Of a DNA stretch of 64,000 bases, positions 15,697 through 36,434 are shown piece by piece. The stretch's first letter is position 1. Each line of letters starts with the position of its first letter. Both the position numbers and the translations under genes were made by a program. Below the pieces are notes generated by a model. It was not told the origin of the DNA. It saw only the letters and a list, made by a program, of their open reading frames with translations, and ran no database searches. This stretch comes from Flavobacteriales bacterium (GTDB taxonomy: Bacteria; Bacteroidota; Bacteroidia; Flavobacteriales_F; PHOS-HE28): the NCBI GenBank assembly GCA_016704485.1, contig JADJAA010000001.1, positions 1,554,824 through 1,618,823 of the forward strand, given 5' to 3'.

Positions 15697-15719
15697 GGGG
15701 TGGTGCTGGTTGTTGAAAT

Positions 15720-17620: not shown

Positions 17621-20600
17621 TCAAGCACTGCGCTCACCCGGCTGTGCGTTCCCTTGCACCCACTCCACTACCGAGATGATCTTATCCTGATCATTCTCAT
17701 TCGGGAATAGGCCGAAGATCCCTTCTTGGTGTAGGTCCGTGAACGTTGAACCCGGCTCTGCGAGCATGCGTTTGTCGATCACGCCGTTCACCGTGAGGTG
17801 CCGAATGATGGAATCGATGAAGTGGATCTGCGTAGCACTGAAGATGGAGCCGGACAAGAATTCGCCGAAGGCTGCTTTTGCTGCGCCTTCATCAAGGCCG
17901 ATGATGCTGCGAATGAAATAGCCTAGTGGCCGTTCCTCGCCAAGTTCCTTCATCAAAGCCTCCTTCGTGCCGCGTTCGTCTCCATCGAACAGGATGCGTT
18001 CCAGTTCCACTAGCTCAGCGGTCGTGATCGGCTCATTGGTGTATAGTTTGTGAATGGTAAGCTGGTGTTTGTGCGAGCGGATGAACTCCTCTACACGCAT
18101 CCGATAGCTACGCATGGTGTAGCTACCTGGCATGGAGATGATATCCTCACCCTCGCTCACCAACTCATCTCTCAGGTCCGAGTATACCACTTTGCGTTCC
18201 TCGCGCGGTATCAAGCGCACTAGATCGCGCAATTGTTTTCGTGTGAATTCCAAGGCTTCCAGACCGAACACAGCGGCTCGTTGTTGTTGATCATTTGCGA
18301 CATCAAGAACTGCTTTGATCGCTGGATACCGCTCCTGCACTACGGGAATGTTGGAGAGCCGGGCAAGCTGTGTGGCGGTTGAGGCCAACGTGCGGAACAG
18401 GCGATCTACTGACGGCGCCTCTTGGGCCACAGCAATTTCCAGATCGAGCATAAGTAGGTCAAATCGTTTGGCCAGCTCGTCCTTGTCCGGTAGTTCGATC
18501 AAGTGACCAACGGTCTCGAACAGATCACTGATCCCGCTTTTTGATAACGCATTCCATGCGGTACGTTCACGGTAGTGATCGAGCACACGTTGCGCAGGAC
18601 GAATGCGCACGGTGTGCCGCAATTCCCAAAGTGCCTGGACCCAACTATGCGCACTATTCAAAAGCTCAACGCGTAGTGCTTGATCTTTTGGTACCTGATG
18701 GGCTGGTTCACGCAGTTGTTCACTAAGTAGGATAGTTGCTTCAAAGATCCGTTGCGATAGGCTGGGGGAGCGCACAGGTTCAATGCCTTCCGGCCGCAGG
18801 TTGAAGAAGCTGTAGTTGCCACAGAGATCGAAGATCCTGAAGTTCTCCTTGTGCTGGCCGGGACCGAACAGATCCGGGCATAAGCGTGTGCCGCGGCCAA
18901 CCATTTGCCAGAACTTGGACTTGCTATAGACCGGTTTAAAGAACACCAAGTTCACGATCTCAGGAATATCAATACCCGTATCCAACATATCCACACTCAC
19001 GGCGATCTGTGGATACCGGTCCTTATCACTGAAATTATCTATGATGCTCTGGGAGTATTGCTCCTTACTGTGTACCACCGACATGAAATGCCCACCGTAC
19101 TGCGGGAACTGATCTTCAAAACGGTTCTGTATGGCCCGGGCATGGTCTATGTTCCTTGCAAAGACAACGGTCTTGCCCAGCTTCTCACCACCTTCCACTT
19201 TGATCCCGTTCTCCATCACATAGGCCAACACCTGATCGATGGTGTTCGAGTTGAAGAGCCAGTTATTGATCGCGGGCGCTCCGATCTCTTCGGGTATATT
19301 CCCTTGGTCGTCCCGGAAGGTCTCTTCGTAATGTGTCCTATCGCTCTCACTCAGGTCATCGTAGCGGATACCGCGTTGCAGAAAGCCGAAGTCCACTGCT
19401 TTGCCAATGGGCGGCACCAGAAAACGATCGGCTACGGCCTGCCCTAATTCATAGAACGATGTCGGGTTATGCTCTTCGCAATCGAACAAGGCATAGGTAT
19501 CCCGATCCCCTTGGTCGTGTGGTGTTGCAGTAAGGCCGACCAACAAGGAATCGAAATAGGTGAAAATAGCACCGTACCGATCGTACACTGAGCGATGCGC
19601 CTCATCCACAATGATCAGATCGAAGTGACCGACACCGAAGGTCTTCACATCATCACTCCGCACTTGGTCCACGCGGTTCATTACCGTGGGGTAGGTGCTG
19701 AAGACCACCCGTGCGCTTTCATCATAGCGCTGTTTGGTGAGATCCAATGTGGTAACATTCGGCAGGTTCTTCTCAAAGGCCCGTTTTGCCTGTGTGACCA
19801 AGGCATTGCGATCAGCGAGAAAGAGCACACGCTTCGCCCAATTCGCTTTCAGTAGAAGGTCCACTAACGCGGCAACGGTACGCGTCTTGCCAGCCCCAGT
19901 GGCCATTACGATCAATGCTTTTCGCTTAAGACCGCGCATGCCATCTTCATCCACCCAACTTTCTGCAACCCGCTTGATCGCTTGATGTTGGTAATAGCGT
20001 TCCACGATCTGCTCATCGATCGGCACATGCCGAATGTTCACACGACCGATACGCCGATCAACGACCCGTTGCAATTCGTCCCGCGTGTAAATGCCCTGTA
20101 CAGCGCGTGGACCATAAAAGGTGTCATCCCAGATCCACGTATCGAAACCGTTGCTATAGAATATCACCGGGCGCTGTCCGGTCATGCGTTCCAGGCAATC
20201 AGCGTAAAGGCTTGCTTGCACACGGCCTTGTTGGGCATCGTGGGTGGTGCGCTTGGCCTCTACTACGGCCAGCGGTTTACCATCTGCACCCCAGAGCACG
20301 TAATCTACCTTGCCGTTGCCGTTGGGATTGGTGCTCAATGGCATCCCTGTTACCGGGTATTCGATCACGTTGGATGCGGCAGGGTCCCAGCCTGCTTCGC
20401 GCAACAGTTCATCAATGAAGAGTAACCGTGTATCCGCCTCCGAATATTCAGAAGCAGGTATGGGTATGTTCTCATGGCGCTCCTTGCGCTCCTGGATCGC
20501 TGCCAGGCGTTCTGCCAATATCTGCTTTTCTCCTTCTAATTTCAACCGTTGCTCGCGCTCGGTCTCCATCGCTACACGTTGCGCTTCATAACGCTCCTGT

Positions 20601-21079
20601 AACTGTTGAAGCTCCGCGCTGTTCGGAACTTCCTTCACTTTCACTTGTACTATGAGTGCCTCCTCTTGGAATGTTCCTACCTCGATGTCGAATGCGCTGT
20701 ACGTACGACCCATCCATTTCAAGAACCGGAACAAGAGGCGCAATGAGGCTACGCTCTGGCTCTCCACCACCTTCTTATCATGCGCAGCGGCATTGCCGGT
20801 ACGCCGGATGTACTGCAGGTCGATGTAGATGGGTGGTGGTATCAGTACCCGGAAGGACCGTTCATCCATCAACGCGCTCAACTGGCTGTTGTAAGGGCGC
20901 TGTAGGTCACTGTCGTTATCATACAGCCAGTGCACGGTACGTTCCAACGCACGGCGGGCATACACGGCAGAGGCGATCGGTGCGGCCAAGGCATACCGCT
21001 CCGCGTCCATGGCCTCCTTCGCAATGGAGGGCCACTCTTCAACGAGGAAGCGGAAGTTGCTCGGGGTGCTCAACGACAT
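17621..21079 (-). CDS. hsdR: Type I restriction enzyme R subunit with N-terminal DUF4145/HEPN-like domain and EcoEI_R_C-type C-terminus
   Basis: N-terminus YARRALERTVHWLY...YIRRTGNAAAHDK. Nuclease VDYVLWGADGKPLAVVEAKRT. Helicase MATGAGKTRT, IIVDEAHRS, LTATP. C-terminal FIRSIIGLDEGAAKAAFGEFL... Confidence 0.9.
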   Translation of the reverse strand: MSLSTPSNFRFLVEEWPSIAKEAMDAERYALAAPIASAVYARRALERTVHWLYDNDSDLQRPYNSQLSALMDERSFRVLIPPPIYIDLQYIRRTGNAAAHDKKVVESQSVASLRLLFRFLKWMGRTYSAFDIEVGTFQEEALIVQVKVKEVPNSAELQQLQERYEAQRVAMETEREQRLKLEGEKQILAERLAAIQERKERHENIPIPASEYSEADTRLLFIDELLREAGWDPAASNVIEYPVTGMPLSTNPNGNGKVDYVLWGADGKPLAVVEAKRTTHDAQQGRVQASLYADCLERMTGQRPVIFYSNGFDTWIWDDTFYGPRAVQGIYTRDELQRVVDRRIGRVNIRHVPIDEQIVERYYQHQAIKRVAESWVDEDGMRGLKRKALIVMATGAGKTRTVAALVDLLLKANWAKRVLFLADRNALVTQAKRAFEKNLPNVTTLDLTKQRYDESARVVFSTYPTVMNRVDQVRSDDVKTFGVGHFDLIIVDEAHRSVYDRYGAIFTYFDSLLVGLTATPHDQGDRDTYALFDCEEHNPTSFYELGQAVADRFLVPPIGKAVDFGFLQRGIRYDDLSESDRTHYEETFRDDQGNIPEEIGAPAINNWLFNSNTIDQVLAYVMENGIKVEGGEKLGKTVVFARNIDHARAIQNRFEDQFPQYGGHFMSVVHSKEQYSQSIIDNFSDKDRYPQIAVSVDMLDTGIDIPEIVNLVFFKPVYSKSKFWQMVGRGTRLCPDLFGPGQHKENFRIFDLCGNYSFFNLRPEGIEPVRSPSLSQRIFEATILLSEQLREPAHQVPKDQALRVELLNSAHSWVQALWELRHTVRIRPAQRVLDHYRERTAWNALSKSGISDLFETVGHLIELPDKDELAKRFDLLMLDLEIAVAQEAPSVDRLFRTLASTATQLARLSNIPVVQERYPAIKAVLDVANDQQQRAAVFGLEALEFTRKQLRDLVRLIPREERKVVYSDLRDELVSEGEDIISMPGSYTMRSYRMRVEEFIRSHKHQLTIHKLYTNEPITTAELVELERILFDGDERGTKEALMKELGEERPLGYFIRSIIGLDEGAAKAAFGEFLSGSIFSATQIHFIDSIIRHLTVNGVIDKRMLAEPGSTFTDLHQEGIFGLFPNENDQDKIISVVEWVQGNAQPGERSA

Positions 21080-23476: not shown

Positions 23477-24274
23477 CTATCCACTCCACTTCACGATATC
23501 CGCCACTACCGTCTTGTAGCTCAAGCCACGCAGCCGTTTCACCACCACGATGCGGGTATCTCCGTACTGCTCTGCGCGTTCGACCGACGAGTCAGTTGGT
23601 CTACTTTCCTTGATCCCCAGCCCCGTGCGAAAATGCGACCACCACGTATCGTTGGTGAGCACCACACAGAGTTTCGGCTGTAATTCCTCCAGTTCCATGC
23701 GCACCAGATCCACGCATTCGGGTCGTTGCAGGATGCGCTCGTCCACATCCGGATTGGCCACTTCGCCACGGTTCTGCGGTGCGATCTTGTAGAGGTTGGA
23801 CCATACCAGTTGACGGTTCCATTCCCACGCGTCCTCATTTGTGATGCCGTGCCGAACCTGCATCAGCTTGACCGTGGCCTGCCAGAAGAACGATGACCAA
23901 GCGCGGTAGTTCTTCTCCCGTTCGGTATACCAGGCTTGTTCTTCCGGGCTACACTTGTTCAAGGTAGTGTTCGTCCACAACACGTTCACCCAATCCAACG
24001 GGGAGTGGTCTTTGAAGGGTTCGTTGGAGTAGCGCTTGCTCTCTTCTATGCGGCCCCTCGGTACTGCCTTCGTGAAGTCCCACTCCGGGTGCCAACCACC
24101 CACGGCCTGGCCGTAGACCAGCACATCAACCGGTTCATTCGTTCGCGTACCGATGCTCGGATAGAAGTCTGTGAAGTGGGTGCGTTGCGGAAAGGTGCGC
24201 GCCAGTCGACGTTGAAAGGCTTCCAAGTGTTGCTGGTAGGCGGCGTTATAGGTTGGTGAGAGGGTGCGATACAT
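23477..24274 (-). CDS. Hypothetical 266-aa protein lodged between hsdS and the hsdS remnant
   Basis: ATG at 24274 (MYRTLSPTYNAAYQQHLEAF...). The longer track ORF to 24451 runs out of frame through the hsdS 3' end. There is no confident family. VDVLVYGQAVGGW faintly resembles UDG-superfamily motif 1, but this is unverified. Confidence 0.6.
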   Translation of the reverse strand: MYRTLSPTYNAAYQQHLEAFQRRLARTFPQRTHFTDFYPSIGTRTNEPVDVLVYGQAVGGWHPEWDFTKAVPRGRIEESKRYSNEPFKDHSPLDWVNVLWTNTTLNKCSPEEQAWYTEREKNYRAWSSFFWQATVKLMQVRHGITNEDAWEWNRQLVWSNLYKIAPQNRGEVANPDVDERILQRPECVDLVRMELEELQPKLCVVLTNDTWWSHFRTGLGIKESRPTDSSVERAEQYGDTRIVVVKRLRGLSYKTVVADIVKWSG

Positions 24275-24302
24275 TATGTCCGTGCTGCGTGATCCTCTTC
24301 CG

Positions 24303-25448
24303 TTAGTTCCCCAACTCCCCCCGGAACGCCCCCTGCAACAAACTCCCGAACAAGCCCTCGCTCTGGTGTAAGCTTGCTGCAATGCAGGTGCGCTGCTTTT
24401 GGATGTTATGGAGTAATGTTCCGAACCGTTCCTGCGCTTTGAGTGGAACAAGTGGAATACGCATTCTTCGGATCTCTTCTGTTGTGATATTCTTGAAGAT
24501 GGCTCCCACCGACTTATCGCTGACCCCTACGGCGAGCATATTCAGATAATGGTAAATGAACCTCAGGTCAAAGCCTTTGTCAAAGTCACGAAATCCTGCA
24601 AATCCATCGTGTATGCAACAGTCGACCATCAGGATCGCTGGCAGGCCTGGCTTCCCACTTACAGCCATCACCAAGTCACCACGTTTCATTGGACGACTGC
24701 GCTGTGAGCCTTCAATCGTGAGTGAATCGATCTGAGGTGTCACATACATCCCATCACGGGTCAAGTCTGCAACCATTAGGCGAGGCACGGGACCTCCAAA
24801 GTATCGCGCATCACCCTGTGGTCTTGGACTGCTCCCACGGACGACCTCACACAACGAACCCAAGTCTACAGTTTCCCACCCCCTCTCATTCCGCACCGGA
24901 TCCCCGAACAGCTCCAAGAACAGGCTCTTGGCAAGTTGGTCGTAAACCGCCAAGGTTCGCCGGTCGTTGGCCACCAGCGCCTGCGCCTTGTCCAAGATCG
25001 CCGCGATGCGACGCTGCGTGGGGAGGGCGGGCGGAGCAAAAGGTAAGCTGCGGATATCTTCTATCTTGAAGCCTTTCACCGTCGCTCCGTTTCCACGCGA
25101 AATGAAGTAATTCTCTTTCGCAAATAGAAAGTAATAGAGATAGGTCTGGTCAACCTTGCCATTTATAACAAGCGCCTTCAGATCCTGATTGAATGCCATC
25201 GGCACGTTCGTGATCGACATGCGCCCAAGAGCCATGCGTGTTGCAATCAATAACGTTCCGGCTGGAACTATCTGTGTCGCACAATTATCTACACCGCGTT
25301 CAGTGATCGACTCGTACGTCTCCGAAATATGCTTTGATGTAAGATCCTTCACCGTAGCCCATGGGACATCACCTTCCCAATAGCCCTCGATATCGCGATT
25401 AGGAGTACCACCACCAAGTATCTGGATATAATTGCCCAGCACGCTCAT
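24303..25448 (-). CDS. hsdS: Type I R-M specificity subunit
   Basis: 381 aa with two TRD halves, each followed by a conserved helical spacer (...LPTQRRIAAILDKAQALV... and ...LKAQERFGTLLHNIQKQR...). 4-nt ATGA overlap with hsdM. Confidence 0.9.
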   Translation of the reverse strand: MSVLGNYIQILGGGTPNRDIEGYWEGDVPWATVKDLTSKHISETYESITERGVDNCATQIVPAGTLLIATRMALGRMSITNVPMAFNQDLKALVINGKVDQTYLYYFLFAKENYFISRGNGATVKGFKIEDIRSLPFAPPALPTQRRIAAILDKAQALVANDRRTLAVYDQLAKSLFLELFGDPVRNERGWETVDLGSLCEVVRGSSPRPQGDARYFGGPVPRLMVADLTRDGMYVTPQIDSLTIEGSQRSRPMKRGDLVMAVSGKPGLPAILMVDCCIHDGFAGFRDFDKGFDLRFIYHYLNMLAVGVSDKSVGAIFKNITTEEIRRMRIPLVPLKAQERFGTLLHNIQKQRTCIAASLHQSEGLFGSLLQGAFRGELGN

Positions 25449-27004
25449 TTCAACAACGCCTCCAATTCGTCCAACAATTTCACACGGTCGGCGGCCAATT
25501 GGCGCAGGCCGGGTTCTCCCTTTTTGCCGTTGATCAGCTCGGCGGGCGTGGCATACTTCACTTGCTCGTACACCACCTCCTTGTAGCGGTTTATGCTGAG
25601 GTCCCAGTTGTTGGCCTTCAAGTCCGCAAAGGGCACCAGAAAGCTCTGGTCGGTTCGTGCACGTTTGCTTTCACCTTTCGCACCGAAGCGCGCTAGGATG
25701 TCGGCGATGTTGCTTTTCTCGTGCAGCGTTTTCGCTCCCTTGGTGGGCTCGGTGTATTGGAGTTCAAGCTGTTCTTCGGTGAGTTGCGGTGTGCGCTTAT
25801 CATCCAACGAGAAACCGTCGGCACGCATGTCGTAGAACCACACGTTGTCGGTACCGCCGCTATCGGTCTTGGTAAAGATCAGCACCGCGGTGCTCACCCC
25901 TGCATAGGGTTTGAATACGCCGCCGGGCATGCTGATCACCGCTTGCAATTGCTGGCGTTCGATCAGTTCCTGCCGCAGTTGCTTGTGCGCCTTGCTGCTG
26001 CCGAAGAGCACACCATCGGGCACGATCACAGCTGCGCGGCCACCTGTGCGGAGCATGCGCAGGATCAGACCTAGGAAGAGCAACTCGGTCTTCTTGCTGC
26101 TCACTGTGCGCAAGATCGCAGGGTCCACAGCGTCGTGGTCCAAGCTGCCTTTGAACGGCGGGTTCGCTAACACCAGCGAGAAGCGCTCACTGATGTGGCC
26201 TTGCTCTTTGCTAAGCGCATCCTGCCCGATCAGTTGCGGGTGCTCAATGCCGTGCAACATCATGTTCATGGCACCAATGCGCAACATGCTGGAGTCGAAC
26301 TCGACCCCGGTGAAGAGGTTGGTGTTGTAATGCTCGCGGAACTTCTTCTCGTGGAAGCTGTCCGGGTGCGTGCGCCGTATCTCTTCGCTTGCCGCCACCA
26401 AGAAACCGCACGTGCCGGCACTGGGATCGCAGATGGTATCGGTGGGTTGCGGAACCATCAGTTGCACCATCATGCGGATGATGTGGCGCGGTGTGCGGAA
26501 CTGGCCGTTGCGTCCTGCCGTAGCGATCTTGCCCAGCAGGTATTCATAGAGGTCGCCCTTGGTGTCGCGGTCGGCCATGTCCAGCGCGGCGATCATTTGC
26601 ACGGCGCGGTCCAGCAACCGCGCGGAGGGGATCATGAACGTAGCACCCTTCATGTGCTCACTGAACACGCTGCCCTCGCGCCCCATCTGCTTCATGAAAT
26701 CGAAGACCGTGAGGTTATCGTTCTTCGCATCAGGCCGCGTAAAGAGCGCGAACAATGTATCCGGGTCCTTGTCCTTGAAACTGCTCCACCGCAACGCCTT
26801 GTACTTGGGCGGGTAAATGGGATCCTTGATGGGCCCACCGAGCTTGGCGCTCTGCTTCTCTTTGGTGGTCTGGATCTCATCCATCCGGCGCAAAAAGAGC
26901 AAGTAGGTGATCTGTTCGATAACCGTGAGCGGATTGGCGATGCCGCCAGTCCAGAAGGCCTCCCAGAGGCGGTCGACGTCGGAGCGGAGTGTTCCGTTTA
27001 TCAT
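25445..27004 (-). CDS. hsdM: Type I R-M DNA methyltransferase subunit
   Basis: HsdM N-terminal domain. FRTPRHIIRMMVQLM, motif I ICDPSAGTCGFLV and motif IV VLANPPFKGS are all intact. Confidence 0.92.
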   Translation of the reverse strand: MINGTLRSDVDRLWEAFWTGGIANPLTVIEQITYLLFLRRMDEIQTTKEKQSAKLGGPIKDPIYPPKYKALRWSSFKDKDPDTLFALFTRPDAKNDNLTVFDFMKQMGREGSVFSEHMKGATFMIPSARLLDRAVQMIAALDMADRDTKGDLYEYLLGKIATAGRNGQFRTPRHIIRMMVQLMVPQPTDTICDPSAGTCGFLVAASEEIRRTHPDSFHEKKFREHYNTNLFTGVEFDSSMLRIGAMNMMLHGIEHPQLIGQDALSKEQGHISERFSLVLANPPFKGSLDHDAVDPAILRTVSSKKTELLFLGLILRMLRTGGRAAVIVPDGVLFGSSKAHKQLRQELIERQQLQAVISMPGGVFKPYAGVSTAVLIFTKTDSGGTDNVWFYDMRADGFSLDDKRTPQLTEEQLELQYTEPTKGAKTLHEKSNIADILARFGAKGESKRARTDQSFLVPFADLKANNWDLSINRYKEVVYEQVKYATPAELINGKKGEPGLRQLAADRVKLLDELEALLK

Positions 27005-27017
27005 GGGGTGAAGATGG

Positions 27018-28226
27018 TCAATGTTTGGTGATGGTGGTAAATTCCCATTTAGACTGTCCGTTCAGTTCGACTTGTTTGACTTGGCCGGAAACGAGGTCGC
27101 CATCCACAAGGCTGTGTAGTTTTATCAGATCCTTGTTGATGTAGGCATCGCCAGCATGGGCGTAGGTGTTATCGTTGCGTTTCTTGACCACGACGCGGCC
27201 CAGTTCTTTGGTATCACCGTCGAGTAGGGGAACTCCGTCGCTGCCTACCGCTTCCTCGTGTAGCCAGGTTCGGTTCGCCTTGGGGTCTGGATACTTTGCT
27301 GCGAACTTCTTGAACCAGACCAACACGTCCATGAGCTGGAACACGATGGTGCTCAAGAGGTAAGGCGTTACACCATGCTCGTGTAGTGCTTCGAGATTGT
27401 CCAAGCTGTAATTGGAATCCTCAGCGGTCTCGTCCGCATGCGAGCTTTCGCTGGTTACCCGCAGAATATTGTCCAGTGCATCGGCAACGATCCGGGGCAT
27501 CATCGGGCGGTCACACTTCAAGGCCACCGTGGCCGAAGAACGGCTCGGATAAAGCACGCGCTCGCCCCGCAGGAACAGTGCTGACAAGCGTTGGTTGACC
27601 CTCGGCTTTACAAGGACATCGGGTAGTAACCCGTGCCGATGCGCGGCATAGAAGAAGTGCTCCACTACCTGACGCAAAGGATTCATGAATAAGCGATCAC
27701 TACCGGACTTGTCCCCGCGATCCACAAAGCGCAATGCGTCCATGAACATAGGGTCGGCAACGGCATCCAAATAAGGAACTTGGAGCACTGCGAACACATC
27801 GGCATACCTATCACGAAGCGCTTGCTCGTTGCTTCGATCAACAAGGCTCTGTAGTTCCGCGTATAGGTCCTTCTCGTTCCCTTTCAAGTACCGCCGCTCA
27901 TCACGACGGTTCTTTGTTGCACCTTCGTCAAAGCCGGTATTGATCACATACGGAATATGAATGTTCGCTCCTTTCCATTGGTCCAGATCCCTGCGGGCTT
28001 CATGCAGGTGGTCGATGTCCTCGGTGGGTGAATGTTCATCCACCTGCCCTCTGGCATCGAGGATCAAGGCTTTGAAACGCTTTTCTCGGATCGGTTCCTT
28101 AGCCTCGGCCCAGGTCTTGAACCAAGTCACTTCGAAACCGTGCGCGACCGCCTTAGCAATTTGGGCTTTGGCGTATGCTTCATCGTCATCTACTAAGGCG
28201 ATCGGAACCAGGTCAAACAGTGTCAT
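27018..28226 (-). CDS. Receiver (REC)-domain protein with DUF4145/HEPN-like middle domain and C-terminal beta-rich domain
   Basis: ATG 28226 gives MTLFDLVPIALVDDDEAY...FKALILDARG...IPYVINTGF, a REC-like acidic pocket, Asp and Thr. The middle region NPLRQVVEHFFYAAHRHG ... LDNILRVTSESSHAD parallels RRALERTVHWLY ... YIRRTGNAAAHDK in the HsdR N-terminus (Rx4-6H). 14-nt overlap with the upstream kinase gene. Confidence 0.6.
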   Translation of the reverse strand: MTLFDLVPIALVDDDEAYAKAQIAKAVAHGFEVTWFKTWAEAKEPIREKRFKALILDARGQVDEHSPTEDIDHLHEARRDLDQWKGANIHIPYVINTGFDEGATKNRRDERRYLKGNEKDLYAELQSLVDRSNEQALRDRYADVFAVLQVPYLDAVADPMFMDALRFVDRGDKSGSDRLFMNPLRQVVEHFFYAAHRHGLLPDVLVKPRVNQRLSALFLRGERVLYPSRSSATVALKCDRPMMPRIVADALDNILRVTSESSHADETAEDSNYSLDNLEALHEHGVTPYLLSTIVFQLMDVLVWFKKFAAKYPDPKANRTWLHEEAVGSDGVPLLDGDTKELGRVVVKKRNDNTYAHAGDAYINKDLIKLHSLVDGDLVSGQVKQVELNGQSKWEFTTITKH

Positions 28227-30909
28227 GCGAAATGGGAAGGTCAATGGTGAAGTGGACAAACATTTGAGTGGATACAGCTTCCCGGTCAAATGGTATCCAA
28301 TGATTCTCGTCTATACGTTGATCGCGTTCAAAACTCGATCGGTACTTGTCATCGCTCACTGGCAGGTTACCCGACACGAACTTTCCGCCGTGGTTGGCAA
28401 TGATCCGATCGATCAGATAGCCGCCTATGCCATTGCCCTTTTTCATGTCCAGACGCTTGCCAAAGGTGATGAAGTGCTCATGGGTAAAACCTTCCGGAAA
28501 GGGTTTGCCGTTGTTCTCGATGGTGATAACCAATCGCGTTCGTTGAGGTTCAATACGCGTTGATACCCTCACCCGTACGACCAATTGTTCCTGATCCGAT
28601 CGAAGGCCGTGTTTGGCCATATTGATGAACAAGTTCTGGATGACAAGTGCGAACTGTTGTTGATCGACATGTGCGATCACTCCTTCAGTGGTTTCTAGTC
28701 CAGCTTCACATTCGAAAATGACCATAAGCGCTTTCACCTGGTCGGCAAGTCCGCGCAATTCCGTTCGGAACAGTCGACGAAGGTCGATGGGCACTGGTCT
28801 TAGACTCTCCTTATCTGATCGGATCACCGCATTGATCAATTGAAAGAGACCGCGCATGCGATCCAATCCACTATTCATTGTATCTAGGGCGGTGGTGATC
28901 GTAGACTTTTCAACTGGGCCCAAACTGTTGAGTACTGCATGGATCTCGGCCATGGGTTGCTCCAGAAGCGCCACCACCGGGCGGAAGCTGTGCTCCACTG
29001 CACCAAGGATCTGCCACTCATCAGTGGAGAGGCCATGCTGTTTTTCCTGCCTAGCGATCTCCTCCTTCTTCGCCAATAGAATGGATTCCTTCCGTTCGCG
29101 AACAATGCGCAGTTGATCCTTGAGTTCGGGTAAGCGAACCCGAATTCTCAGAACGTCTGCTTTGGCTATGAAAGCGATCGTACTTCCTTGGTGGTATGCG
29201 TCGAGCTGATCTTGGATCGTGGGCGTTCTTAGTTCTGTTGCGAGGTATTCGGTATTAGCACGAGCCGCATCCACACGGAACATGAATACATTGCTTCCCA
29301 CGGCGATCGGTCCATCTACCGGGTCGAATAAGGTCGGCTTCAACTTTCCGCCCACCCGTGCAAGTAGCAGTGCTGGCACATCCAATCTCTTCAGTCCCTT
29401 CTTGACAGAACCGGTTTCATGTTGCCCATCACGCGCCGTGCGCCTCATGTCGAGGACATCCGTTGAAAGCTCGGAGACCTGGAAGAGCGGCAGACCGGCG
29501 AGGTCGCCCATGGAGAGGATATCGTCCGAAAGCACGGTGCCGAGTTCAACCACGTCCACACCATCCGCTTCGGCCACGATATGGGCTTGTTGAAGCAGGC
29601 TGGCAAACCGACTCATGCTCCAAGACACATGCTCGTCGGAACGGATGTCAGAAACCTTCACGTCCAAAACACCTTGTAAGGTATAAGTGCTATCCAACGC
29701 CTGCAGCACGCTGCTAACATCGAGTGTTATTTCGGATCGCGTCTTGTATGTGACATGCAAACCCGCATCCACGAATCGGACAGGCGCATTCGTTGGCCGT
29801 GATCCATTCAAAACAATGATCGAGGTCTTTATCCCTGAGTAGGGTGTGAAGGATCCTGCTGGCAACGAGATCACTGCTTCGAGCAACCCTAGGTCAAGAA
29901 TCTGTTTGCGTAGATGCGCTCTGTTGATGCCGAACAACATACTCTCGGGCACAAGGATCACCGCCTTCCCCTCGGGTGCAAGCCGCTTGAGGATCTGGTT
30001 GATCGCTATCTCATAGGGTTCTATCGCGCGTAGCCTTCCTTCCTCTTTCACTCGACCACCGAAAGGTGGTGCACTAATGCAATGCGTATACTTCTTGTTG
30101 GAAGCACCGGGTGCTGATGGTTCGTTCAAGGCGGCGTTCAGGTCTGCCCCGAGAATACGTGCTTGCAGCGTATTGAAGAAGAATGCGAATTGGTTGAAGA
30201 ATACCGCGTCGAGCTTTACAGAATGTGGCGCACGCGCTGCGAGCACTGCTGGCAATACGCTCGCATCCGCAGCTGGGTCGAATACCTCTTCCACGTCTCC
30301 GAGCAGCCGCGCCATAAGCATTGCAACGGACCATGGCGTACAGAACTGGCCCATGTGACTATCGCGCAAGAGGAGGCTACGCATTTCTTCCACATACTCG
30401 ATCGGTTCCAAACCCGCTGATGCCATGAGAAAAAGCTCAGTTTGTACTGGGCTTGTTGCCAGTGCGCCGCCATTTTTAAGAAGATACGAATGCTGCTCCC
30501 CAAAGTCCTTAAACTCCTCTGCCAATTCATTCAAGGTGGACCATAATCCTTCTCCTCTTTGAGCGATCGTAGGCAACACTCCTGCTGGGCGCACGGCCAA
30601 GGCATAAATGAGTGCCAGCTCCAAGCCAACGGTCTGCGCGAAGGGCATGGATCGTAGCGCATTGCGCAATTCCCATGCGTGGGCCTGAAAAAAACGGACC
30701 CGGTTCAACATACGTTCTGGATCCAACTGTAAACTACCGTCATCGGATATACTAACACGCCCACCAGACAACTCCACCTCAGCAAGCAAGCTCGATGGCT
30801 CAACGTCCTTCTGGCTCAATAAGACCTTGACGATATTACAGACACCCTCCAAAGTATCCGAGCCGTTCTTCAGGCGAAGGGCACATATTATGGCGTCTAT
30901 CAGTTTCAT
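28213..30909 (-). CDS. Chimeric sensor histidine kinase: HsdM-like N6-MTase fold (degenerate motifs) + HsdS-like TRD + DHp/HATPase_c
   Basis: MTase-like: GQFCTPWSVAMLMARLL, VFDPAADASVLP (motif I lacks GxG), HCISAPPFGG (Ala where N/D/S is expected), KAVILVPESMLFG...LLEAVISLPAGSFTPYSGIKTSIIVLN. TRD-like: VELGTVLSD...LLLARVGGKLKPTLFD...VGSNVFMFRV...YLATELRT. Kinase: H-box GAVEHSFRPVVALL, N-box VIQNLFINMAKHG, ITIENNGKPF, GNGIGGYLIDRII. Confidence 0.7.
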   Translation of the reverse strand: MKLIDAIICALRLKNGSDTLEGVCNIVKVLLSQKDVEPSSLLAEVELSGGRVSISDDGSLQLDPERMLNRVRFFQAHAWELRNALRSMPFAQTVGLELALIYALAVRPAGVLPTIAQRGEGLWSTLNELAEEFKDFGEQHSYLLKNGGALATSPVQTELFLMASAGLEPIEYVEEMRSLLLRDSHMGQFCTPWSVAMLMARLLGDVEEVFDPAADASVLPAVLAARAPHSVKLDAVFFNQFAFFFNTLQARILGADLNAALNEPSAPGASNKKYTHCISAPPFGGRVKEEGRLRAIEPYEIAINQILKRLAPEGKAVILVPESMLFGINRAHLRKQILDLGLLEAVISLPAGSFTPYSGIKTSIIVLNGSRPTNAPVRFVDAGLHVTYKTRSEITLDVSSVLQALDSTYTLQGVLDVKVSDIRSDEHVSWSMSRFASLLQQAHIVAEADGVDVVELGTVLSDDILSMGDLAGLPLFQVSELSTDVLDMRRTARDGQHETGSVKKGLKRLDVPALLLARVGGKLKPTLFDPVDGPIAVGSNVFMFRVDAARANTEYLATELRTPTIQDQLDAYHQGSTIAFIAKADVLRIRVRLPELKDQLRIVRERKESILLAKKEEIARQEKQHGLSTDEWQILGAVEHSFRPVVALLEQPMAEIHAVLNSLGPVEKSTITTALDTMNSGLDRMRGLFQLINAVIRSDKESLRPVPIDLRRLFRTELRGLADQVKALMVIFECEAGLETTEGVIAHVDQQQFALVIQNLFINMAKHGLRSDQEQLVVRVRVSTRIEPQRTRLVITIENNGKPFPEGFTHEHFITFGKRLDMKKGNGIGGYLIDRIIANHGGKFVSGNLPVSDDKYRSSFERDQRIDENHWIPFDREAVSTQMFVHFTIDLPISHDTV

Positions 30910-30971: not shown

Positions 30972-32234
30972 TCAAGCGACTTTCTCCAGTCGGTTTGTCG
31001 GCAGAAGTTGGGCAGCCATACGATCCATGACCTCCCATTCCGGACGTGTGTACGAGTTGCTCTCCGTGACCACCGGGATCCTGAATTCGCCCATGGCATC
31101 CTCGCGCATAGCCCATTGATCCTTCTGGTCGTAGAGCTTTGTTCCGGGCAAAAGCATCAGCGGCCAAGCCTTAACGTCCCTGCAGCCTTTGGATAAGAGG
31201 TGGTCGATACTACGCTGGAAACTTTCCAAGGTCTGTCCGGGCAACCCGTAGATCAAACTCACTTCGAAAGGAATCTCGCGCTCCACAAGCTGTTCAATAG
31301 CAGCATCGACAAGATCCATCCGATTGGCGCGGTCAATTTTCTTGGACACTGCATGGTCCGTGGTCTGCAACCCGAACTCCAAGTGGAAGTTGGCTTGCGT
31401 ACAAAGGTCCAGGAATGCATTAACCTGTTGGCCTCGGATATTCTCAAAGCGCGATTGCAGGGTGAAGGTGGAGCGCGTACGGAGTTGAACGATCTCTTGC
31501 ATTATATCCAGGCACTCCTTCCCAGCGTTGAAGATGGGGTCGAGTATGTTCACGCGTTGCACACGATGTTCAGTGAGAAATGCTAACTCTTTAAAGACTT
31601 TATCCAGTGGGTGCTTATGCACGCGGTGAGTGGCGAGGTCGCGGTGTGCGCAAAATGAACACCGGTAGGGGCAGCCGCGTTTGGTCTCCAACCGTACCAT
31701 ACCGGCTCCCATTGGTACAGGCAATTCGCCAGTGAGATACGGTGAGGCCAGTTGTGTGAAGTCCACTGGTACGTTCACGAACACGGGTTCGTCGGCATCG
31801 AGATGGTCCGTCAATTCGGCAAAGGCTTGTTCGGCTTGTCCGGAGATGAAGACCTGGCAATCCGGATACCGACGCAGCAATTCTGCTCGGTTCCCGTAGG
31901 TGACTTGATACCCTCCGAGGACCACCTTGCCAAGGAACCCAAGACGACGAAGCAATGCGATGATGCCATTGGTGAGGTACTCGTTCCAGATGTAAGCCGA
32001 GAGCGCGATGGCGTTAAAGCGGCTCACATCAAGCGCCGCGAGTTGCACTTCGAATTGCTCGGGTGTGGCCGTGCCGCCGTGTTCGAGCATGTTGATCGAG
32101 AGGTGTTCCACGTGCATCTGTCCACGCAGCCGTTCATTACTCCGTTGGTGTGCCAAGAGAGATGCGATCGCCAAGGGCTTGGTGATCTCACCGTGCCGGA
32201 TCAGGTCGAAGGATATGATGAGCGTGTTCGTCAT
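30972..32234 (-). CDS. Radical SAM enzyme with N-terminal B12-binding-like domain
   Basis: ATG 32234 (MTNTLIISFDL...). Rossmann-like N-terminal domain VVLGGYQVTY. CxxxCxxC cluster in ETKRGCPYRCSFCAHRD. Confidence 0.8.
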   Translation of the reverse strand: MTNTLIISFDLIRHGEITKPLAIASLLAHQRSNERLRGQMHVEHLSINMLEHGGTATPEQFEVQLAALDVSRFNAIALSAYIWNEYLTNGIIALLRRLGFLGKVVLGGYQVTYGNRAELLRRYPDCQVFISGQAEQAFAELTDHLDADEPVFVNVPVDFTQLASPYLTGELPVPMGAGMVRLETKRGCPYRCSFCAHRDLATHRVHKHPLDKVFKELAFLTEHRVQRVNILDPIFNAGKECLDIMQEIVQLRTRSTFTLQSRFENIRGQQVNAFLDLCTQANFHLEFGLQTTDHAVSKKIDRANRMDLVDAAIEQLVEREIPFEVSLIYGLPGQTLESFQRSIDHLLSKGCRDVKAWPLMLLPGTKLYDQKDQWAMREDAMGEFRIPVVTESNSYTRPEWEVMDRMAAQLLPTNRLEKVA

Positions 32235-32343
32235 TGGTCCTCGCCACCAAGGGTCTATATGGTTGGATAATCGCTCAACCAACGAACTTCCCTATGGCAA
32301 CGGACCAAAAGTCCCGGTCACCTGTGCAGTCTATCTGCACAGT

Positions 32344-33354
32344 TCATTTCGCGTAGTTCTTCTTCATTTCCATCACCCGCAAAAGCAGCGCTTGGCGTAG
32401 TTCTTCCGGCGCAATAACCTGTAGCCCTTCTCCATAAGATAACAACAAGGCTTGTAGCTCGTAGTTCAGCTTCACTTCTAAACGAATAGTCGCGCCGCCG
32501 TCTTTTCTCTTCACTACTTTCTGCGAACCGTGTATAGGCTTTGACTCCAAATAAGGCCAAAGTCTATCCGTGACTTGGATCTTGACAACAACAGCTTCTT
32601 GATCCGCAGGTACACTTACACCAACAACATCCTCAAAATACTCCGTGAAATCCACCTCATCGTTCGGTATGTATTTCACCTTACTGGGTACAATATCCCG
32701 GATCCGGTCCAAGGCCATATTGACAATACGCCCCTCTTCCTCAAGACCAAAAACAAACCAACGGTTGTTATACTGTTTCAAGTAATACGGATGGAGCAAC
32801 ACAATGCTAGGCGCATTTTGCTTGAAGCCTTGGTAAGATATTTCCAAGGCTTGCTCATTGATGATCGAATGAAATAATGTGGTAATGTGCTCGGCACCTT
32901 TCAAATACGGGTTCTGCTCAAACTCGATGACCTGAGCAGCCCCTTGTTTCAGCCCGAAACCAGCTTCCAACCGAGCAACTAATTCATCTACCCATTCAAA
33001 CTGCGGCATGCCCTTAAATCGGCTCAGCGTTAAGAGCGCCTCCTTCAATTGTTCCGCTTCGCTCTCGTTCAGCGGTCGCTTGTTGATAGAGAATTCAAGG
33101 TCACTGTACCGGTAAAAAGTACGCTTTCCGTCTTTGTGTTTCTCCAGCGGGATAGCCCATCCTTGTTCGCTCTCCATGTACTTGATGTCCTCGAAAACTT
33201 GGCGGCGGCTGATGCTTGCACCTGCTCCGGTGAACTCCTCCAACGCCATGTTGCAAGCTTCCATCAGGTCTTCGATGAAATACTCGCGCCCACGGTTCGC
33301 AAAGCAACGGTCCATTGTCTGATAGCGAATAAGGGCATTCTTATTTACGGGCAT
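32344..33354 (-). CDS. WYL-domain transcriptional regulator (BrxR/CapW-like layout: wHTH + WYL + C-terminal domain)
   Basis: N-terminus MPVNKNALIRYQTMDRCFANRGREYFIEDLMEACN. WYL core VLLHPYYLKQYNNRWFVFG...NMALDRIRDIV. It is the first gene of the minus-strand operon. Confidence 0.8.
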   Translation of the reverse strand: MPVNKNALIRYQTMDRCFANRGREYFIEDLMEACNMALEEFTGAGASISRRQVFEDIKYMESEQGWAIPLEKHKDGKRTFYRYSDLEFSINKRPLNESEAEQLKEALLTLSRFKGMPQFEWVDELVARLEAGFGLKQGAAQVIEFEQNPYLKGAEHITTLFHSIINEQALEISYQGFKQNAPSIVLLHPYYLKQYNNRWFVFGLEEEGRIVNMALDRIRDIVPSKVKYIPNDEVDFTEYFEDVVGVSVPADQEAVVVKIQVTDRLWPYLESKPIHGSQKVVKRKDGGATIRLEVKLNYELQALLLSYGEGLQVIAPEELRQALLLRVMEMKKNYAK

Positions 33355-33489: not shown

Positions 33490-33904
33490 CTGCCAGCTGG
33501 GTGGTAACCTGCACCAAGCTTGATGGTACCACACACCAAGCTTAGTGGTACCCTGTGCCAAGCTTAGTGGTACCTTGCACTAAGCTTGATGGTACCCTGC
33601 ACTAAGCTTAGTGGTACCCTGCACTAAGCTTAGTGGTACTCTGCACTAAGCTTAATGGTACCCTGCACCCAGTTGGGTGGTACCCTCCACCCAGCAGGGT
33701 GGTACCCTGCACCCAGTTGGGTGGTACCCTGCACTAAGCTTAGTGGTACCCTGCACTAAGCTTAGTGGTACTCTGCACTAAGCTTAATGGTACCCTGCAC
33801 CCAGTTGGGTGGTACCCTGCACCCAGTTGGGTGGTACCCTGCACCCAGTTGGGTGGTACCCCGCACTAAACTTAATGGTACCCGACACCAAGCTCAATAG
33901 TGCA
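33490..33904. repeat. Tandem array 1: about 19 contiguous 22-bp units, each carrying a 14-bp palindrome plus GGTACC
   Basis: The units are CTGCACTAAGCTTAGTGGTACC (core CACTAAGCTTAGTG) or CTGCACCCAGTTGGGTGGTACC (core CACCCAGTTGGGTG). Units at 33597-33728 are repeated at 33729-33860 as a 132-bp (6-unit) higher-order repeat. Edge units are degenerate. Confidence 0.95.
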
Positions 33905-33993: not shown

Positions 33994-34202
33994 CTATACC
34001 ATACTACTATAGGGCACATTGAACCTTAGTCTGGACTTCCGCCTTCGGAACTGCATTCGCTGCCAGATGATCATTGGGGTGCAATTATCCCAAACCTATA
34101 CCATATTACTATAGGGGGCATAAGCCTCCATCTCCGGCTCGTGAACTTTGGAGGTAAAGATGGTGTGATTTGACCTACTACCTATACCATATTACTATAT
34201 GG
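33994..34202 (+). promoter_or_regulatory. Three dispersed copies of a 21-bp element CTATACCATA(T/C)TACTATA(G/T)GG
   Basis: Copies at 33994-34014, 34096-34116 and 34182-34202, with starts 102 and 86 bp apart, all in the same orientation. Two copies end in ACTATAGGG, identical to positions -6 to +3 of the T7 promoter consensus. Function is unknown. Confidence 0.5.
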
Positions 34203-34291
34203 TGCTTTGCACCGTGCGCCTCGTGGTGCACACTTGTGGTTCAGAACTGCTTCATGTAGGCCTGGTGCAAGAGGCTGTATTTGTTCCATTG

Positions 34292-34753: not shown

Positions 34754-35042
34754 GTAACGATACTTCAAGTTACAGTACACTTACTTGATACAGAGGTGCT
34801 TATGCCATTGCGTGGGGTATGCCTGCTTGTAACACGGGGACTGATAACCCACTCAGCGTCAGGCGTAAAGAGTGATCCGAACGTTGCCCGTGCTGCATAA
34901 CCCATCCTCGAGCGGCCGCGTGCGGGCTACAGTAAATGAAAAGAACCCCGGCCAGTTGTGCTAGGATTCTTCCGTTCGGGGATGGTGTATGAGTGGCAGG
35001 GTCGTCTGCTATGCGGCAGACTGACCCTGAGCGGGTTTAAAA

Positions 35043-36426: not shown

Positions 36427-36434
36427 TGAAGAGC

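What the first reader, a model, noticed from the sequence alone, without database searches (positions are those of the whole stretch)
27018..28226. Response-regulator-like protein with a DUF4145/HEPN-like output and a C-terminal beta domain: candidate phosphorylation-gated effector
The N-terminus has REC hallmarks: IALVDDDE, a candidate acceptor Asp in FKALILDARG, and Thr in YVINTGF. There is no DNA-binding output domain. Instead the middle region (NPLRQVVEHFFYAAHRHG ... LDNILRVTSESSHAD) parallels the DUF4145 domain at the HsdR N-terminus in this same window (RRALERTVHWLY ... YIRRTGNAAAHDK). That domain carries an Rx4-6H motif characteristic of HEPN RNases. The last roughly 80 aa (GRVVVKKRNDNTYAHAGDAYINKD...GQVKQVELNGQSKWEF) look like a small beta-barrel or OB-type fold. 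The gene overlaps the kinase gene by 14 nt.
Basis: inference. Interest (0 to 1): 0.7.

Follow-up and report, generated by a model that had tools for sequence, protein, structure and literature searches.

The report
Kinase-switched RNase-like defence effector gene
This gene encodes a two-component "receiver" switch fused to a HEPN (RNase-type) domain and an RNA-binding barrel, and it always follows a histidine kinase built from a dead DNA methyltransferase, so it looks like an undescribed, fairly widespread phage-defence module often attached to a restriction system.

Summary

The family has about 1,300 clusters and is unannotated. In 13 of 13 contexts the gene follows a roughly 900-aa histidine kinase. 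That kinase's sensor is a degenerate HsdM-like methyltransferase plus an HsdS-like target-recognition domain. A WYL regulator is usually nearby, and type I hsdM/hsdS often are.

Best reading: a defensive two-component system with a phosphorylation-gated HEPN RNase. It works like Detocs and like PrrC. Function is inferred, not shown.

The parts
27018..28226 (-). REC-HEPN-OB effector gene (402 aa), the finding itself
   Evidence: ORF and translation. AlphaFold2 model has mean pLDDT 80.5. 20 close homologues and about 1,305 50%-identity cluster representatives. NCBI annotates it 'hypothetical protein' in Flavobacteriales MAGs.
27852..28211 (-). Receiver (REC) domain, residues ~6-125. Acidic pocket D13/D14/D15 (28182-28190), phospho-acceptor D57 (28056-28058), T97 (27936-27938), K115 (27882-27884).
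27294..27764 (-). HEPN-fold, DUF4145-like domain, residues ~155-311. Invariant R185 (27672-27674) and E189 (27660-27662) on helix 2. Invariant H263 (27438-27440) at the end of helix 3. Non-conserved R256 (27459-27461). W304 on helix 4.
27021..27266 (-). C-terminal S1/cold-shock-like OB barrel, residues ~321-402. Absent from the ~300-aa short form of the family.
   Evidence: In the window protein: Rho_RNA_bind E 3.5e-4 and S1CSD-TOTE-2 E 0.12. Among 131 members: S1CSD-TOTE-2 in 16 (best E 1.7e-8), OB_RNB in 8, Rho_RNA_bind in 5. Beta strands predicted at 322-401.
28213..30909 (-). Cognate sensor histidine kinase (898 aa). It has an N-terminal domain, a degenerate HsdM-like N6-methyltransferase (motif IV is APPF, motif I is FDPAADAS), an HsdS-like TRD, a DHp domain with His640 (28990-28992) and a HATPase_c domain.
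   Evidence: Pfam N6_Mtase 5.7e-15 and HATPase_c 1.7e-8. PADLOC MTase_I and Specificity_I hits. Motif and H/N/G1/G2 box alignments. It lies immediately upstream of the effector in 13/13 contexts.
32344..33354 (-). WYL/WCX transcriptional regulator at the head of the gene cluster
   Evidence: Pfam WYL 3.3e-10 and WCX 1.7e-11. A WYL/WCX gene is also present near the pair in L001, L004, L005, L025, L026 and L027.
30972..32282 (-). B12-binding-like radical SAM enzyme. It is specific to this clade and is not part of the family-wide core.
   Evidence: Pfam Radical_SAM 3.3e-13. PADLOC candidate-defence model PDC-M51A, E 6.6e-117. Present in L001 and L002. Replaced or absent in L004, L005, L025 and L026.
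24303..27004 (-). Type I hsdM (25445..27004) and hsdS (24303..25448), immediately downstream of the effector
   Evidence: Pfam N6_Mtase 1.6e-57, HsdM_N and Methylase_S. The same adjacency is seen in L001, L002, L004, L005, L021 and L025.
17621..21079 (-). Type I hsdR with an N-terminal DUF4145 (HEPN) domain
   Evidence: Pfam ResIII, EcoEI_R_C, and DUF4145 at 3.8e-9 over residues 26-106.

Best explanation
The gene encodes the effector half of a defensive two-component system.

**Sensor.** The upstream protein is a histidine kinase. Its sensory part is an HsdM-like methyltransferase that has lost its catalytic residues, fused to an HsdS-like target-recognition domain. In effect it is a type I methylase complex turned into a sensor. 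I infer that it detects an infection-associated cue. Candidates are foreign or unmodified DNA, or a phage anti-restriction factor that targets type I methylases. It would then autophosphorylate on His640.

**Effector.** The phosphate passes to Asp57 of the receiver domain. Phosphorylation would drive the usual receiver-mediated dimerisation or release of inhibition. That would bring the HEPN domains together into an active metal-independent RNase site built from the invariant H263, R185 and E189. The C-terminal S1/cold-shock-like barrel would hold single-stranded RNA. The outcome would be RNA cleavage and translational shutdown. This gives an abortive-infection or second-line defence backing up the adjacent type I restriction system. 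A WYL regulator controls the whole cluster.

**Shown here.** Domain identities, conservation of catalytic-type residues, strict kinase-effector pairing, and the defence-island context.

**Inferred.** The signal, phosphotransfer, RNase activity and the defence phenotype.
For: - **Kinase.** It has an invariant H-box His640 and conserved N, G1 and G2 boxes. It lies immediately upstream in 13/13 contexts, with overlapping or near-abutting reading frames.
[quoted passage not shown] The HEPN superfamily paper places the catalytic His and the auxiliary acidic residue at exactly these positions (PMC3710099).
- **DUF4145 link.** The extended hhalign alignment to DUF4145 puts R185/E189 on DUF4145's RxxLE, H263 on its N.AaH, and W304 on its Trp. 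DUF4145 is a proven RNase domain in RAZR (PMC13017515).
- **OB domain.** The S1/CSD-type OB is a typical single-stranded RNA binder.
- **Context.** The region is a defence island: type I R-M, GmrSD, a radical SAM matching PADLOC PDC-M51A, a WYL regulator, and an HNH + ABC ATPase pair.
- **Precedents.** Detocs shows that a kinase -> REC-effector relay can be an antiphage system (10.1101/2023.01.24.525353). PrrC shows a HEPN RNase embedded in a type I R-M locus as a second line of defence (PMC3710099).
Against: - No direct Pfam, NCBIfam or PADLOC hit identifies the middle domain.
- Foldseek against the PDB found nothing significant; the best E was 2.2.
- hhalign probability to DUF4145 is only 31%.
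- The canonical arginine of Rx4-6H is not conserved, so catalytic competence is not assured. Some HEPN domains are non-catalytic binders.
- Spatial proximity of R185, E189 and H263 could not be measured because no coordinates were available.
- The sensor's TRD shows no specific similarity to the neighbouring HsdS TRDs. It is conserved while the neighbouring HsdS proteins diverge. So the simple idea that it reads the same site as the R-M system is not supported, and the signal is unknown.
- One context (L026) has no type I R-M within 10 kb.
- No experiment exists.
Confidence: 0.55

Rival explanations
1. The protein is an RNA-binding regulatory response regulator, analogous to REC-ANTAR proteins. 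Its HEPN domain would be non-catalytic, like MtlR-type HEPN domains. Together with the OB barrel it would bind a transcript and tune expression of the downstream hsdM/hsdS genes or of the cluster itself.
For: - The canonical Rx4-6H arginine is not conserved.
- HEPN domains lacking the motif are proposed to be non-catalytic RNA binders (PMC3710099 abstract).
- The OB/CSD domain binds RNA.
- The gene sits directly upstream of hsdM in many loci.
Against: - R185, E189 and H263 are invariant or nearly so across sequences with ~21% mean identity. That pattern suggests a catalytic site rather than a binding surface.
- His263 occupies the catalytic position.
- About a third of the family lacks the OB domain.
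- The pair also occurs without adjacent hsd genes (L026).
- A separate WYL regulator already accompanies the cluster.
Confidence: 0.15
2. The protein is a phosphorylation-controlled modulator of the type I restriction complex itself. Its DUF4145-like domain would pair with the DUF4145 domain at the HsdR N-terminus, or with HsdM, to switch restriction on or off. This would be restriction alleviation or activation, with no nuclease activity of its own.
For: - HEPN domains typically act as dimers (PMC13017515).
- HsdR in this window carries a DUF4145 domain.
- The sensor kinase is built from HsdM/HsdS-like parts and could join the methylase complex.
Against: - HsdR proteins in L002/L003 and L025 show no DUF4145 hit.
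- L026 has no type I system nearby.
- The invariant His/Arg/Glu and the added RNA-binding OB are not explained by a purely protein-binding role.
Confidence: 0.1
3. This is an ordinary housekeeping two-component system that happens to lie in a defence island. The helical middle domain would be a generic four-helix bundle with no HEPN ancestry.
For: - No curated profile recognises the middle domain.
- Foldseek is non-significant.
Against: - The invariant residues fall at HEPN active-site positions.
- The kinase's sensor is derived from R-M parts, and the pair travels with WYL regulators and R-M genes in distant lineages.
Confidence: 0.1

Closest known systems
Detocs (DtcA/DtcB/DtcC defensive two-component system; Rousset et al., bioRxiv 10.1101/2023.01.24.525353)
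   Same: A histidine kinase is paired with a response regulator whose DNA-binding output is replaced by a toxic effector domain. It sits in a defence context. The His -> Asp relay is required for defence in Detocs, and its effector domain is modular.
   Different: The Detocs sensor is TPR-based. Here the sensor is a degenerate HsdM-like methyltransferase plus an HsdS-like TRD. The Detocs effector is a PNP ATP nucleosidase, and here it is HEPN plus OB. No DtcB-like buffer receiver is present. There is no PADLOC hit to any Detocs model. This module travels with WYL regulators and type I R-M genes.
PrrC / RloC anticodon nucleases linked to type Ic R-M (EcoprrI)
   Same: A HEPN-family RNase gene embedded among hsdM/hsdS/hsdR genes. 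It is thought to act as a second line of defence when restriction is subverted (PMC3710099).
   Different: PrrC is regulated by an ABC-ATPase domain and by direct binding to the R-M complex. Here regulation would go through a receiver domain and a dedicated kinase. PrrC keeps the canonical Rx4-6H motif, and this family keeps only the His. There is no ABC ATPase domain.
DUF4145 (PF13643) HEPN domains, e.g. the HsdR N-terminal domains and RAZR (PD-T7-4)
   Same: Same fold class. [quoted passage not shown] DUF4145 is a proven RNase in RAZR, with R146 and H154 essential (PMC13017515).
   Different: No Pfam DUF4145 hit in 131 members. hhalign probability is only 31%. The motif arginine and the GN of 'R..GN.AaH' are missing. 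There is an extra beta-hairpin insert and, in this clade, an additional helix after the His. It is fused to REC, a fusion not listed for DUF4145 in PMC3710099.
MADS MAD2 / type I HsdM methyltransferases
   Same: The kinase's sensor region matches N6_Mtase, PADLOC mad2 (7.3e-13) and MTase_I (9.7e-20) models.
   Different: The similarity is confined to the methyltransferase fold. The catalytic (N/D)PP(F/Y) Asn/Asp is lost in 8 of the 9 homologues aligned (L005 keeps an Asn, in NLPF), and motif I is degenerate. None of the other mad genes is present. The domain is fused to a histidine kinase.

Membership tests
Response regulator receiver domain (REC, CheY-like, PF00072) | (beta/alpha)5 flavodoxin-like fold | tested here: met
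Response regulator receiver domain (REC, CheY-like, PF00072) | Acidic pair, phospho-acceptor Asp, Thr/Ser and Lys at the canonical positions | tested here: met
   D13 (D/E 130/131), D14 (124/131), D57 (131/131), T97 (T/S 131/131), K115 (130/131). D57 aligns with the acceptor 'LD' of PDB receivers.
Response regulator receiver domain (REC, CheY-like, PF00072) | Match to the curated Pfam model above its gathering score | tested here: not met
   No Response_reg hit for the window protein at E<=1. Only 3 of 131 relatives hit it at E<=0.01, best 4.4e-5. NCBIfam gives weak hits only, E 0.008-0.02. This is a divergent receiver.
Response regulator receiver domain (REC, CheY-like, PF00072) | Phosphotransfer from a cognate histidine kinase | not testable with these tools
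   Indirect evidence only. A kinase with all catalytic boxes lies immediately upstream in 13/13 contexts, and its gene overlaps this one by 14 nt here.
HEPN superfamily (Pfam clan CL0291) | [quoted passage not shown] | tested here: met
HEPN superfamily (Pfam clan CL0291) | Rx4-6H motif at the end of helix 3 | tested here: inconclusive
   H263 is invariant and sits at the end of helix 3. The window protein has R256-x6-H263, but position 256 is mostly D, E, N or S in the family. An invariant Arg (R185) lies on helix 2 instead. HEPN families that keep the His but relocate the basic residue are described (Parep1/8, PMC3710099).
HEPN superfamily (Pfam clan CL0291) | Conserved acidic residue on helix 2 near the active site | tested here: met
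   E189 is conserved in 130/131 and lies on helix 2.
HEPN superfamily (Pfam clan CL0291) | Metal-independent endoribonuclease activity | not testable with these tools
   Needs biochemistry.
DUF4145 (PF13643) | Match to the Pfam model | tested here: not met
   No hit in the window protein or in any of 131 relatives at E<=0.01. HsdR in the same window hits at 3.8e-9.
DUF4145 (PF13643) | Profile-profile similarity and collinear signature residues (RxxLE on helix 2, R..GN.AaH at the end of helix 3, Trp on helix 4) | tested here: inconclusive
   hhalign of the 131-sequence domain profile against 17 HsdR-type DUF4145 domains gives P 5e-4, probability 31% and score 27.0. Thirty column-shuffled controls scored at most 14.4 and the reversed control scored 10.1. 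The extended alignment matches R185/E189, H263 and W304 to the DUF4145 signature. The R and GN of the second motif are absent.
S1 / cold-shock-like OB fold | Small five-stranded beta-barrel matching S1/CSD-type profiles | tested here: met
   Strands are predicted across 322-401. In the window protein, Rho_RNA_bind scores E 3.5e-4 at 20.7 bits, below the cutoff of 27. Among relatives, S1CSD-TOTE-2 hits 16 (best 1.7e-8), OB_RNB hits 8 and Rho_RNA_bind hits 5. No separate fold search of this domain was run.
Detocs | DtcA (TPR sensor kinase), DtcB (stand-alone buffer receiver) and DtcC (REC + PNP or other effector), as detected by family HMMs | tested here: not met
   PADLOC-DB 2.0.0 gave no hit for the effector and only MTase and specificity hits among the 25 best listed for the kinase. 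No stand-alone receiver gene is present in the locus. The logic is the same but the proteins are different.
PrrC/RloC anticodon nucleases | N-terminal ABC-type ATPase fused to a C-terminal HEPN domain with Rx4-6H | tested here: not met
   There is no ATPase domain, and the N-terminus is a receiver. The genomic logic (HEPN inside a type I R-M locus) is shared.

The most novel reading that the evidence does not exclude
A previously unrecognised and widespread class of antiphage two-component system. A type I methylase complex (HsdM + HsdS TRD) has been converted into a catalytically dead sensor histidine kinase. It would act as a decoy or guard that detects phage anti-restriction proteins (DNA mimics such as Ocr/ArdA, or Stp-like factors) or foreign DNA. 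It would then switch on a REC-HEPN(-OB) RNase by phosphorylation. This would be the first kinase-gated HEPN nuclease and the first restriction-derived sensor kinase.
Probability: 0.35. Interest if true: 0.85.

Novelty: new variant of a known kind. Interest (0 to 1): 0.7.

Why it matters
If the reading is right, three things follow.

- **A new control mode for HEPN RNases.** Known HEPN toxins are controlled by antitoxins, cyclic nucleotides, ATPase domains or assembly on phage proteins. This would add control by His-Asp phosphorelay.
- **Detocs is not an isolated case.** It would show that two-component signalling has been recruited repeatedly for immunity.
- **A new kind of sensor.** The sensor would be a methyltransferase/specificity module that has lost catalysis and is wired to a kinase. 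That offers a direct handle on how cells sense failure or subversion of restriction-modification.

The family is not rare: about 1,300 clusters at 50% identity, 878 of them with E<=1e-10. It carries no annotation, so current defence-finder tools would miss a candidate system. The cassette is small (WYL regulator, kinase, effector) and every step has an obvious point mutant, so it is easy to test.

Tried and rejected
**Searches that gave nothing useful**
- Direct hmmscan against Pfam, NCBIfam and PADLOC for the effector gave nothing significant for the REC or middle domain.
- I searched the big protein database with the HsdR DUF4145 domain to build a comparison profile and got only 2 hits. I rebuilt the profile from 14 plasmid HsdR/ATPase N-termini found by tblastn.
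- phmmer of the HsdR DUF4145 domain against PDB sequences gave only spurious hits.
- My first hhalign run used a wrong flag and was meaningless. I repeated it correctly.
- The afdb50 fold library was unavailable, so I could not check for 'DUF4145 domain-containing protein' names among AlphaFold models.
- Foldseek against the PDB with the domain model was non-significant. RAZR did not appear in either fold search.
- The search for related loci with the diverse alignment failed. With the close alignment it returned only 2 loci.
- Literature searches for a methyltransferase-kinase plus REC-HEPN system, for PDC-M51 and for TOTE found no description. The library is limited to open-access papers and bioRxiv. 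A figure legend in the DefensePredictor paper mentions an unvalidated predicted system with HATPase and REC domains. I could not see the figure, so I cannot say whether it is the same system.

**Hypotheses rejected**
- The sensor reads the same DNA site as the neighbouring type I system. Rejected because the sensor TRD has only generic similarity to the adjacent HsdS TRDs. It is also 72% identical between the window and L002, whose HsdS proteins show no BLAST match to each other.
- The locus is a MADS system. Rejected because the similarity is restricted to the methyltransferase fold of MAD2.
- The radical SAM gene is a core partner. Rejected because it occurs only in the window/L001/L002 clade.
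Full report
**1. The observation**

The ORF at 27018..28226 on the minus strand is real. It starts at ATG 28224-28226 and encodes 402 residues. The upstream 898-aa ORF (28213..30909) ends with TGA at 28213-28215. The two genes therefore share 14 nt, ATGACACTGTTTGA. A longer TTG-initiated ORF reaching 28289 exists, but all homologues start at the same Met. The identical protein is annotated only as 'hypothetical protein' in Flavobacteriales metagenome-assembled genomes.

**2. The receiver domain**

Curated profiles do not recognise it.
- Pfam gives no Response_reg hit at E<=1.
- NCBIfam gives only weak hits to CreB and ActR over residues 9-80, E 0.008-0.02.

Other evidence is strong.
- A profile built from 23 homologues hits receiver domains in the PDB at E ~1e-3. 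D57 aligns with the acceptor Asp.
- In 131 diverse family members with 21% mean column identity, the five residues of receiver phospho-chemistry are conserved:
  - D13: D or E in 130/131.
  - D14: D in 124/131.
  - D57: 131/131.
  - T97: T or S in 131/131.
  - K115: 130/131.

This is a divergent but functional-looking receiver.

**3. The middle domain**

- HEPN toxins 8xdj, 7ae2 and 5yep
- sacsin HEPN, YutE, Roquin
- LsoA, Csm6, DrrA, AbiA
- RnlA, Csx1 and Las1 further down the list

The topology fits the published HEPN description (PMC3710099).
- There are two alpha-hairpins: helices 157-170 and 176-197, then 245-261 and 288-311.
- A variable insert, here containing a beta-hairpin, lies between helices 2 and 3.
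- The catalytic His sits at the end of helix 3.
- An auxiliary acidic residue sits on helix 2.

In the family, H263 (end of helix 3) is invariant and E189 (helix 2) is conserved in 130/131. R185, one turn before E189, is also invariant. D, E, N and S are the commonest residues at that position. The family therefore keeps the HEPN His but not the motif Arg. The HEPN paper notes the same situation for the Parep1/8 family, where other conserved basic residues may substitute.

**4. Is it DUF4145?**

None of the 131 members hits PF13643. HsdR in the same window hits it at 3.8e-9.

I built a DUF4145 profile from this HsdR, its two database homologues and 14 plasmid-borne HsdR/ATPase N-termini. hhalign against the 131-sequence middle-domain profile gave these results:

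| Comparison | Score | P-value | Probability |
|---|---|---|---|
| Middle domain vs DUF4145 | 27.0 | 5e-4 | 31% |
| 30 column-shuffled controls | at most 14.4 | - | - |
| Reversed DUF4145 profile | 10.1 | - | - |
| REC vs DUF4145 | 12.1 | - | - |
| OB vs DUF4145 | 10.9 | - | - |

The confident part of the alignment covers helix 3, the His and helix 4: 'P..I...l..I..it...SH' over 'ip..i...l..iR..GN.AaH', and the conserved Trp. With relaxed settings the alignment becomes collinear over the whole domain. It then places R185/E189 on DUF4145's invariant RxxLE.

I conclude that the domain belongs to the HEPN superfamily and that DUF4145 is probably its nearest family. Membership in PF13643 is not established.

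**5. The C-terminal domain**

Residues ~321-402 are predicted to be beta-rich.
- In the window protein: Rho_RNA_bind E 3.5e-4 (below threshold) and S1CSD-TOTE-2 E 0.12.
- Among relatives: 16 hit S1CSD-TOTE-2 (best 1.7e-8), 8 hit OB_RNB and 5 hit Rho_RNA_bind.

These are all S1/cold-shock-type OB folds, which bind single-stranded nucleic acid.

**6. The family**

Only 20 close homologues exist among 5.8 billion clustered proteins. A profile search of 1.84 billion representatives finds 1,305 at E<=1e-3 and 878 at E<=1e-10. There are two forms:
- about 300 aa: REC + HEPN
- about 380-410 aa: REC + HEPN + OB

None of the proteins whose source names I saw has a functional name, apart from one labelled 'CheY-like'.

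**7. The partner kinase**

The upstream protein has these features.
- An N6_Mtase domain (5.7e-15) and a HATPase_c domain (1.7e-8).
- PADLOC hits to type I methyltransferase and type I specificity-subunit models, the latter over residues ~472-640.
- A conserved H-box (GAVEH640SFRPV) and conserved N, G1 and G2 boxes in nine homologues.

Its methyltransferase module is degenerate.
- Motif IV reads A/K/V/N/I/Y-(P/L)-P-(F/L) instead of (N/D)PP(F/Y).
- Motif I reads FDPAADAS instead of DPxxGxGxF in this clade.

It is therefore very probably not an active methylase.

Its TRD-like region is as conserved as, or more conserved than, the rest of the protein. It is 72% identical between the window and L002, against 66% for the methyltransferase module, and 50% against 43% for L001. 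Meanwhile the adjacent HsdS proteins of the window and L002 have no detectable BLAST similarity to each other. The sensor TRD also has only generic similarity to neighbouring HsdS TRDs. The sensor therefore does not track the specificity of the adjacent R-M system, and it appears to recognise something constant.

A histidine kinase is a dimer. A dimer of this protein would carry two methylase-like and two TRD-like modules. That would resemble an M2S1 type I methylase. This last point is inference.

**8. Gene neighbourhood**

The kinase lies immediately upstream of the effector in all 13 contexts where upstream DNA was available. These are the window, L001, L002/3, L004, L005 and L021-L028. They include relatives with only ~20-25% identity. 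Spacing between the two genes ranges from overlaps of 4-20 nt to gaps of 1-12 nt.

| Neighbour | Present in | Absent or replaced in |
|---|---|---|
| WYL/WCX regulator | window, L001, L004, L005, L025, L026, L027 | - |
| Type I hsdM/hsdS, adjacent or close | window, L001, L002, L004, L005, L021, L025 | none within 10 kb in L026 |
| Radical SAM (PADLOC candidate PDC-M51A, E 6.6e-117) | window, L001, L002 | DUF7255 takes its place in L004 |

The conserved core is therefore regulator, sensor kinase and REC-HEPN effector, frequently docked onto a type I R-M system.

The window itself is a defence island in a Bacteroidota-type genome. It contains:
- HsdR with a DUF4145 domain
- a GmrSD-like gene
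- a 1,610-aa DEAD/UvrD helicase
- a membrane cyclase with Pycsar-cyclase similarity
- an HNH + ABC-ATPase pair

**9. Mechanism**

The best-supported reading is a defensive two-component relay.
1. The pseudo-methylase kinase senses an infection cue and autophosphorylates on His640.
2. It phosphorylates Asp57 of the effector.
3. This activates, probably by dimerisation, a HEPN RNase site formed by H263, R185 and E189.
4. The OB barrel holds the RNA.

The domains, the conserved residues and the gene pairing are shown here. The signal, the phosphotransfer, the RNase activity and the phenotype are inferred.

Three precedents make each step plausible.
- Detocs: kinase -> REC-effector, with defence lost in His and Asp mutants (10.1101/2023.01.24.525353).
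- PrrC: a HEPN anticodon nuclease inside a type Ic R-M locus, released when phage Stp disables restriction (PMC3710099).
- RAZR: a DUF4145 domain proven to be an RNase (PMC13017515).

The conserved, non-catalytic methylase/TRD sensor suggests a guard or decoy for anti-restriction factors, or a sensor of foreign DNA. I rate that more specific idea at about 0.35.

**10. Rivals**

- A non-catalytic RNA-binding regulator: 0.15.
- A phosphorylation-dependent modulator of the restriction complex through DUF4145-DUF4145 pairing: 0.10. This is weakened because the HsdR proteins in L002 and L025 show no DUF4145 hit.
- An ordinary two-component system with a generic helical bundle: 0.10.

**11. Novelty**

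Searches of open-access literature found no description of a methyltransferase-derived histidine kinase paired with a REC-HEPN protein. PADLOC 2.0.0 has no model for the effector. A DefensePredictor figure legend mentions an unvalidated predicted system containing HATPase and REC domains. I could not establish whether it is this one.

Defensive two-component systems and R-M-linked HEPN nucleases are both known. I therefore class this as a new variant of a known kind, with a new sensor type and a new way of gating a HEPN domain. Interest 0.7.

Noticed in passing
window 28213-30909 (-): The sensor kinase is a chimera. It combines a catalytically degenerate HsdM-like methyltransferase (motif IV APPF, motif I FDPAADAS) and an HsdS-like TRD with a complete DHp/HATPase kinase. 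Unlike real HsdS TRDs, its TRD is conserved between systems whose neighbouring HsdS proteins are unrelated.
   Followed up: partly
window 30972-32282 (-): A B12-binding-like radical SAM enzyme matches the PADLOC candidate-defence model PDC-M51A (E 6.6e-117) and the KedN5-type methylcobalamin rSAM methyltransferases (E 1.2e-32). It is conserved with the kinase-effector pair only in the closest clade (window, L001, L002). Its substrate is unknown.
   Followed up: partly
window 33501-33894 and 34292-34746: Two long tandem arrays lie just beyond the WYL regulator gene. One is 22 nt x ~18 copies with a 132-nt super-period, and the other is 21 nt x ~21.7 copies at 91% match. The long ORFs listed over 34182-34788 on both strands (VHVLTGQ..., YMYLRDK...) are by-products of the second array. 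The purpose of the arrays is unknown.
   Followed up: no
window 21302-23375 (+): A membrane-anchored nucleotide cyclase lies on the opposite strand, between hsdS and hsdR. It is 458 aa, spans 21999-23375, and hits PADLOC Pycsar cyclase PycC at 1.2e-15. An unannotatable 253-aa ORF (21302-22063) precedes it and overlaps it by 65 nt in another frame. No obvious cyclic-nucleotide effector was identified.
   Followed up: no
window 23477-24451 (-): A 324-aa ORF sits between hsdS and the cyclase. It has no family assignment apart from a very weak uracil-DNA-glycosylase-superfamily hit (E 0.14). It overlaps the 3' end of hsdS.
   Followed up: no
window 17621-21079 (-): HsdR carries an N-terminal DUF4145 (HEPN) domain, E 3.8e-9, with RRALE and RRTGNAAAH motifs. 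The locus therefore contains two HEPN-type domains. The HsdR proteins in related loci L002 and L025 show no DUF4145 hit.
   Followed up: partly
window 10664-17534 (-): A GmrSD_N-type gene (604 aa, 15720-17534) and a 1,610-aa DEAD + UvrD double-helicase protein (10664-15496) follow hsdR. A similar giant DEAD/UvrD protein (1,827 aa) lies downstream of the same cassette in L001, which suggests a larger conserved island.
   Followed up: no
window 35458-38822 (-): An HNH-like protein (322 aa) sits directly downstream of an ABC/AAA_21 ATPase (795 aa). The gene pair looks like another candidate defence module.
   Followed up: no
L026 11331-12584: In a distant relative's locus that lacks type I R-M genes, the effector is followed by a CSD + DUF3825 protein and a PIF1 helicase. 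The accessory genes of the module vary between lineages.
   Followed up: no
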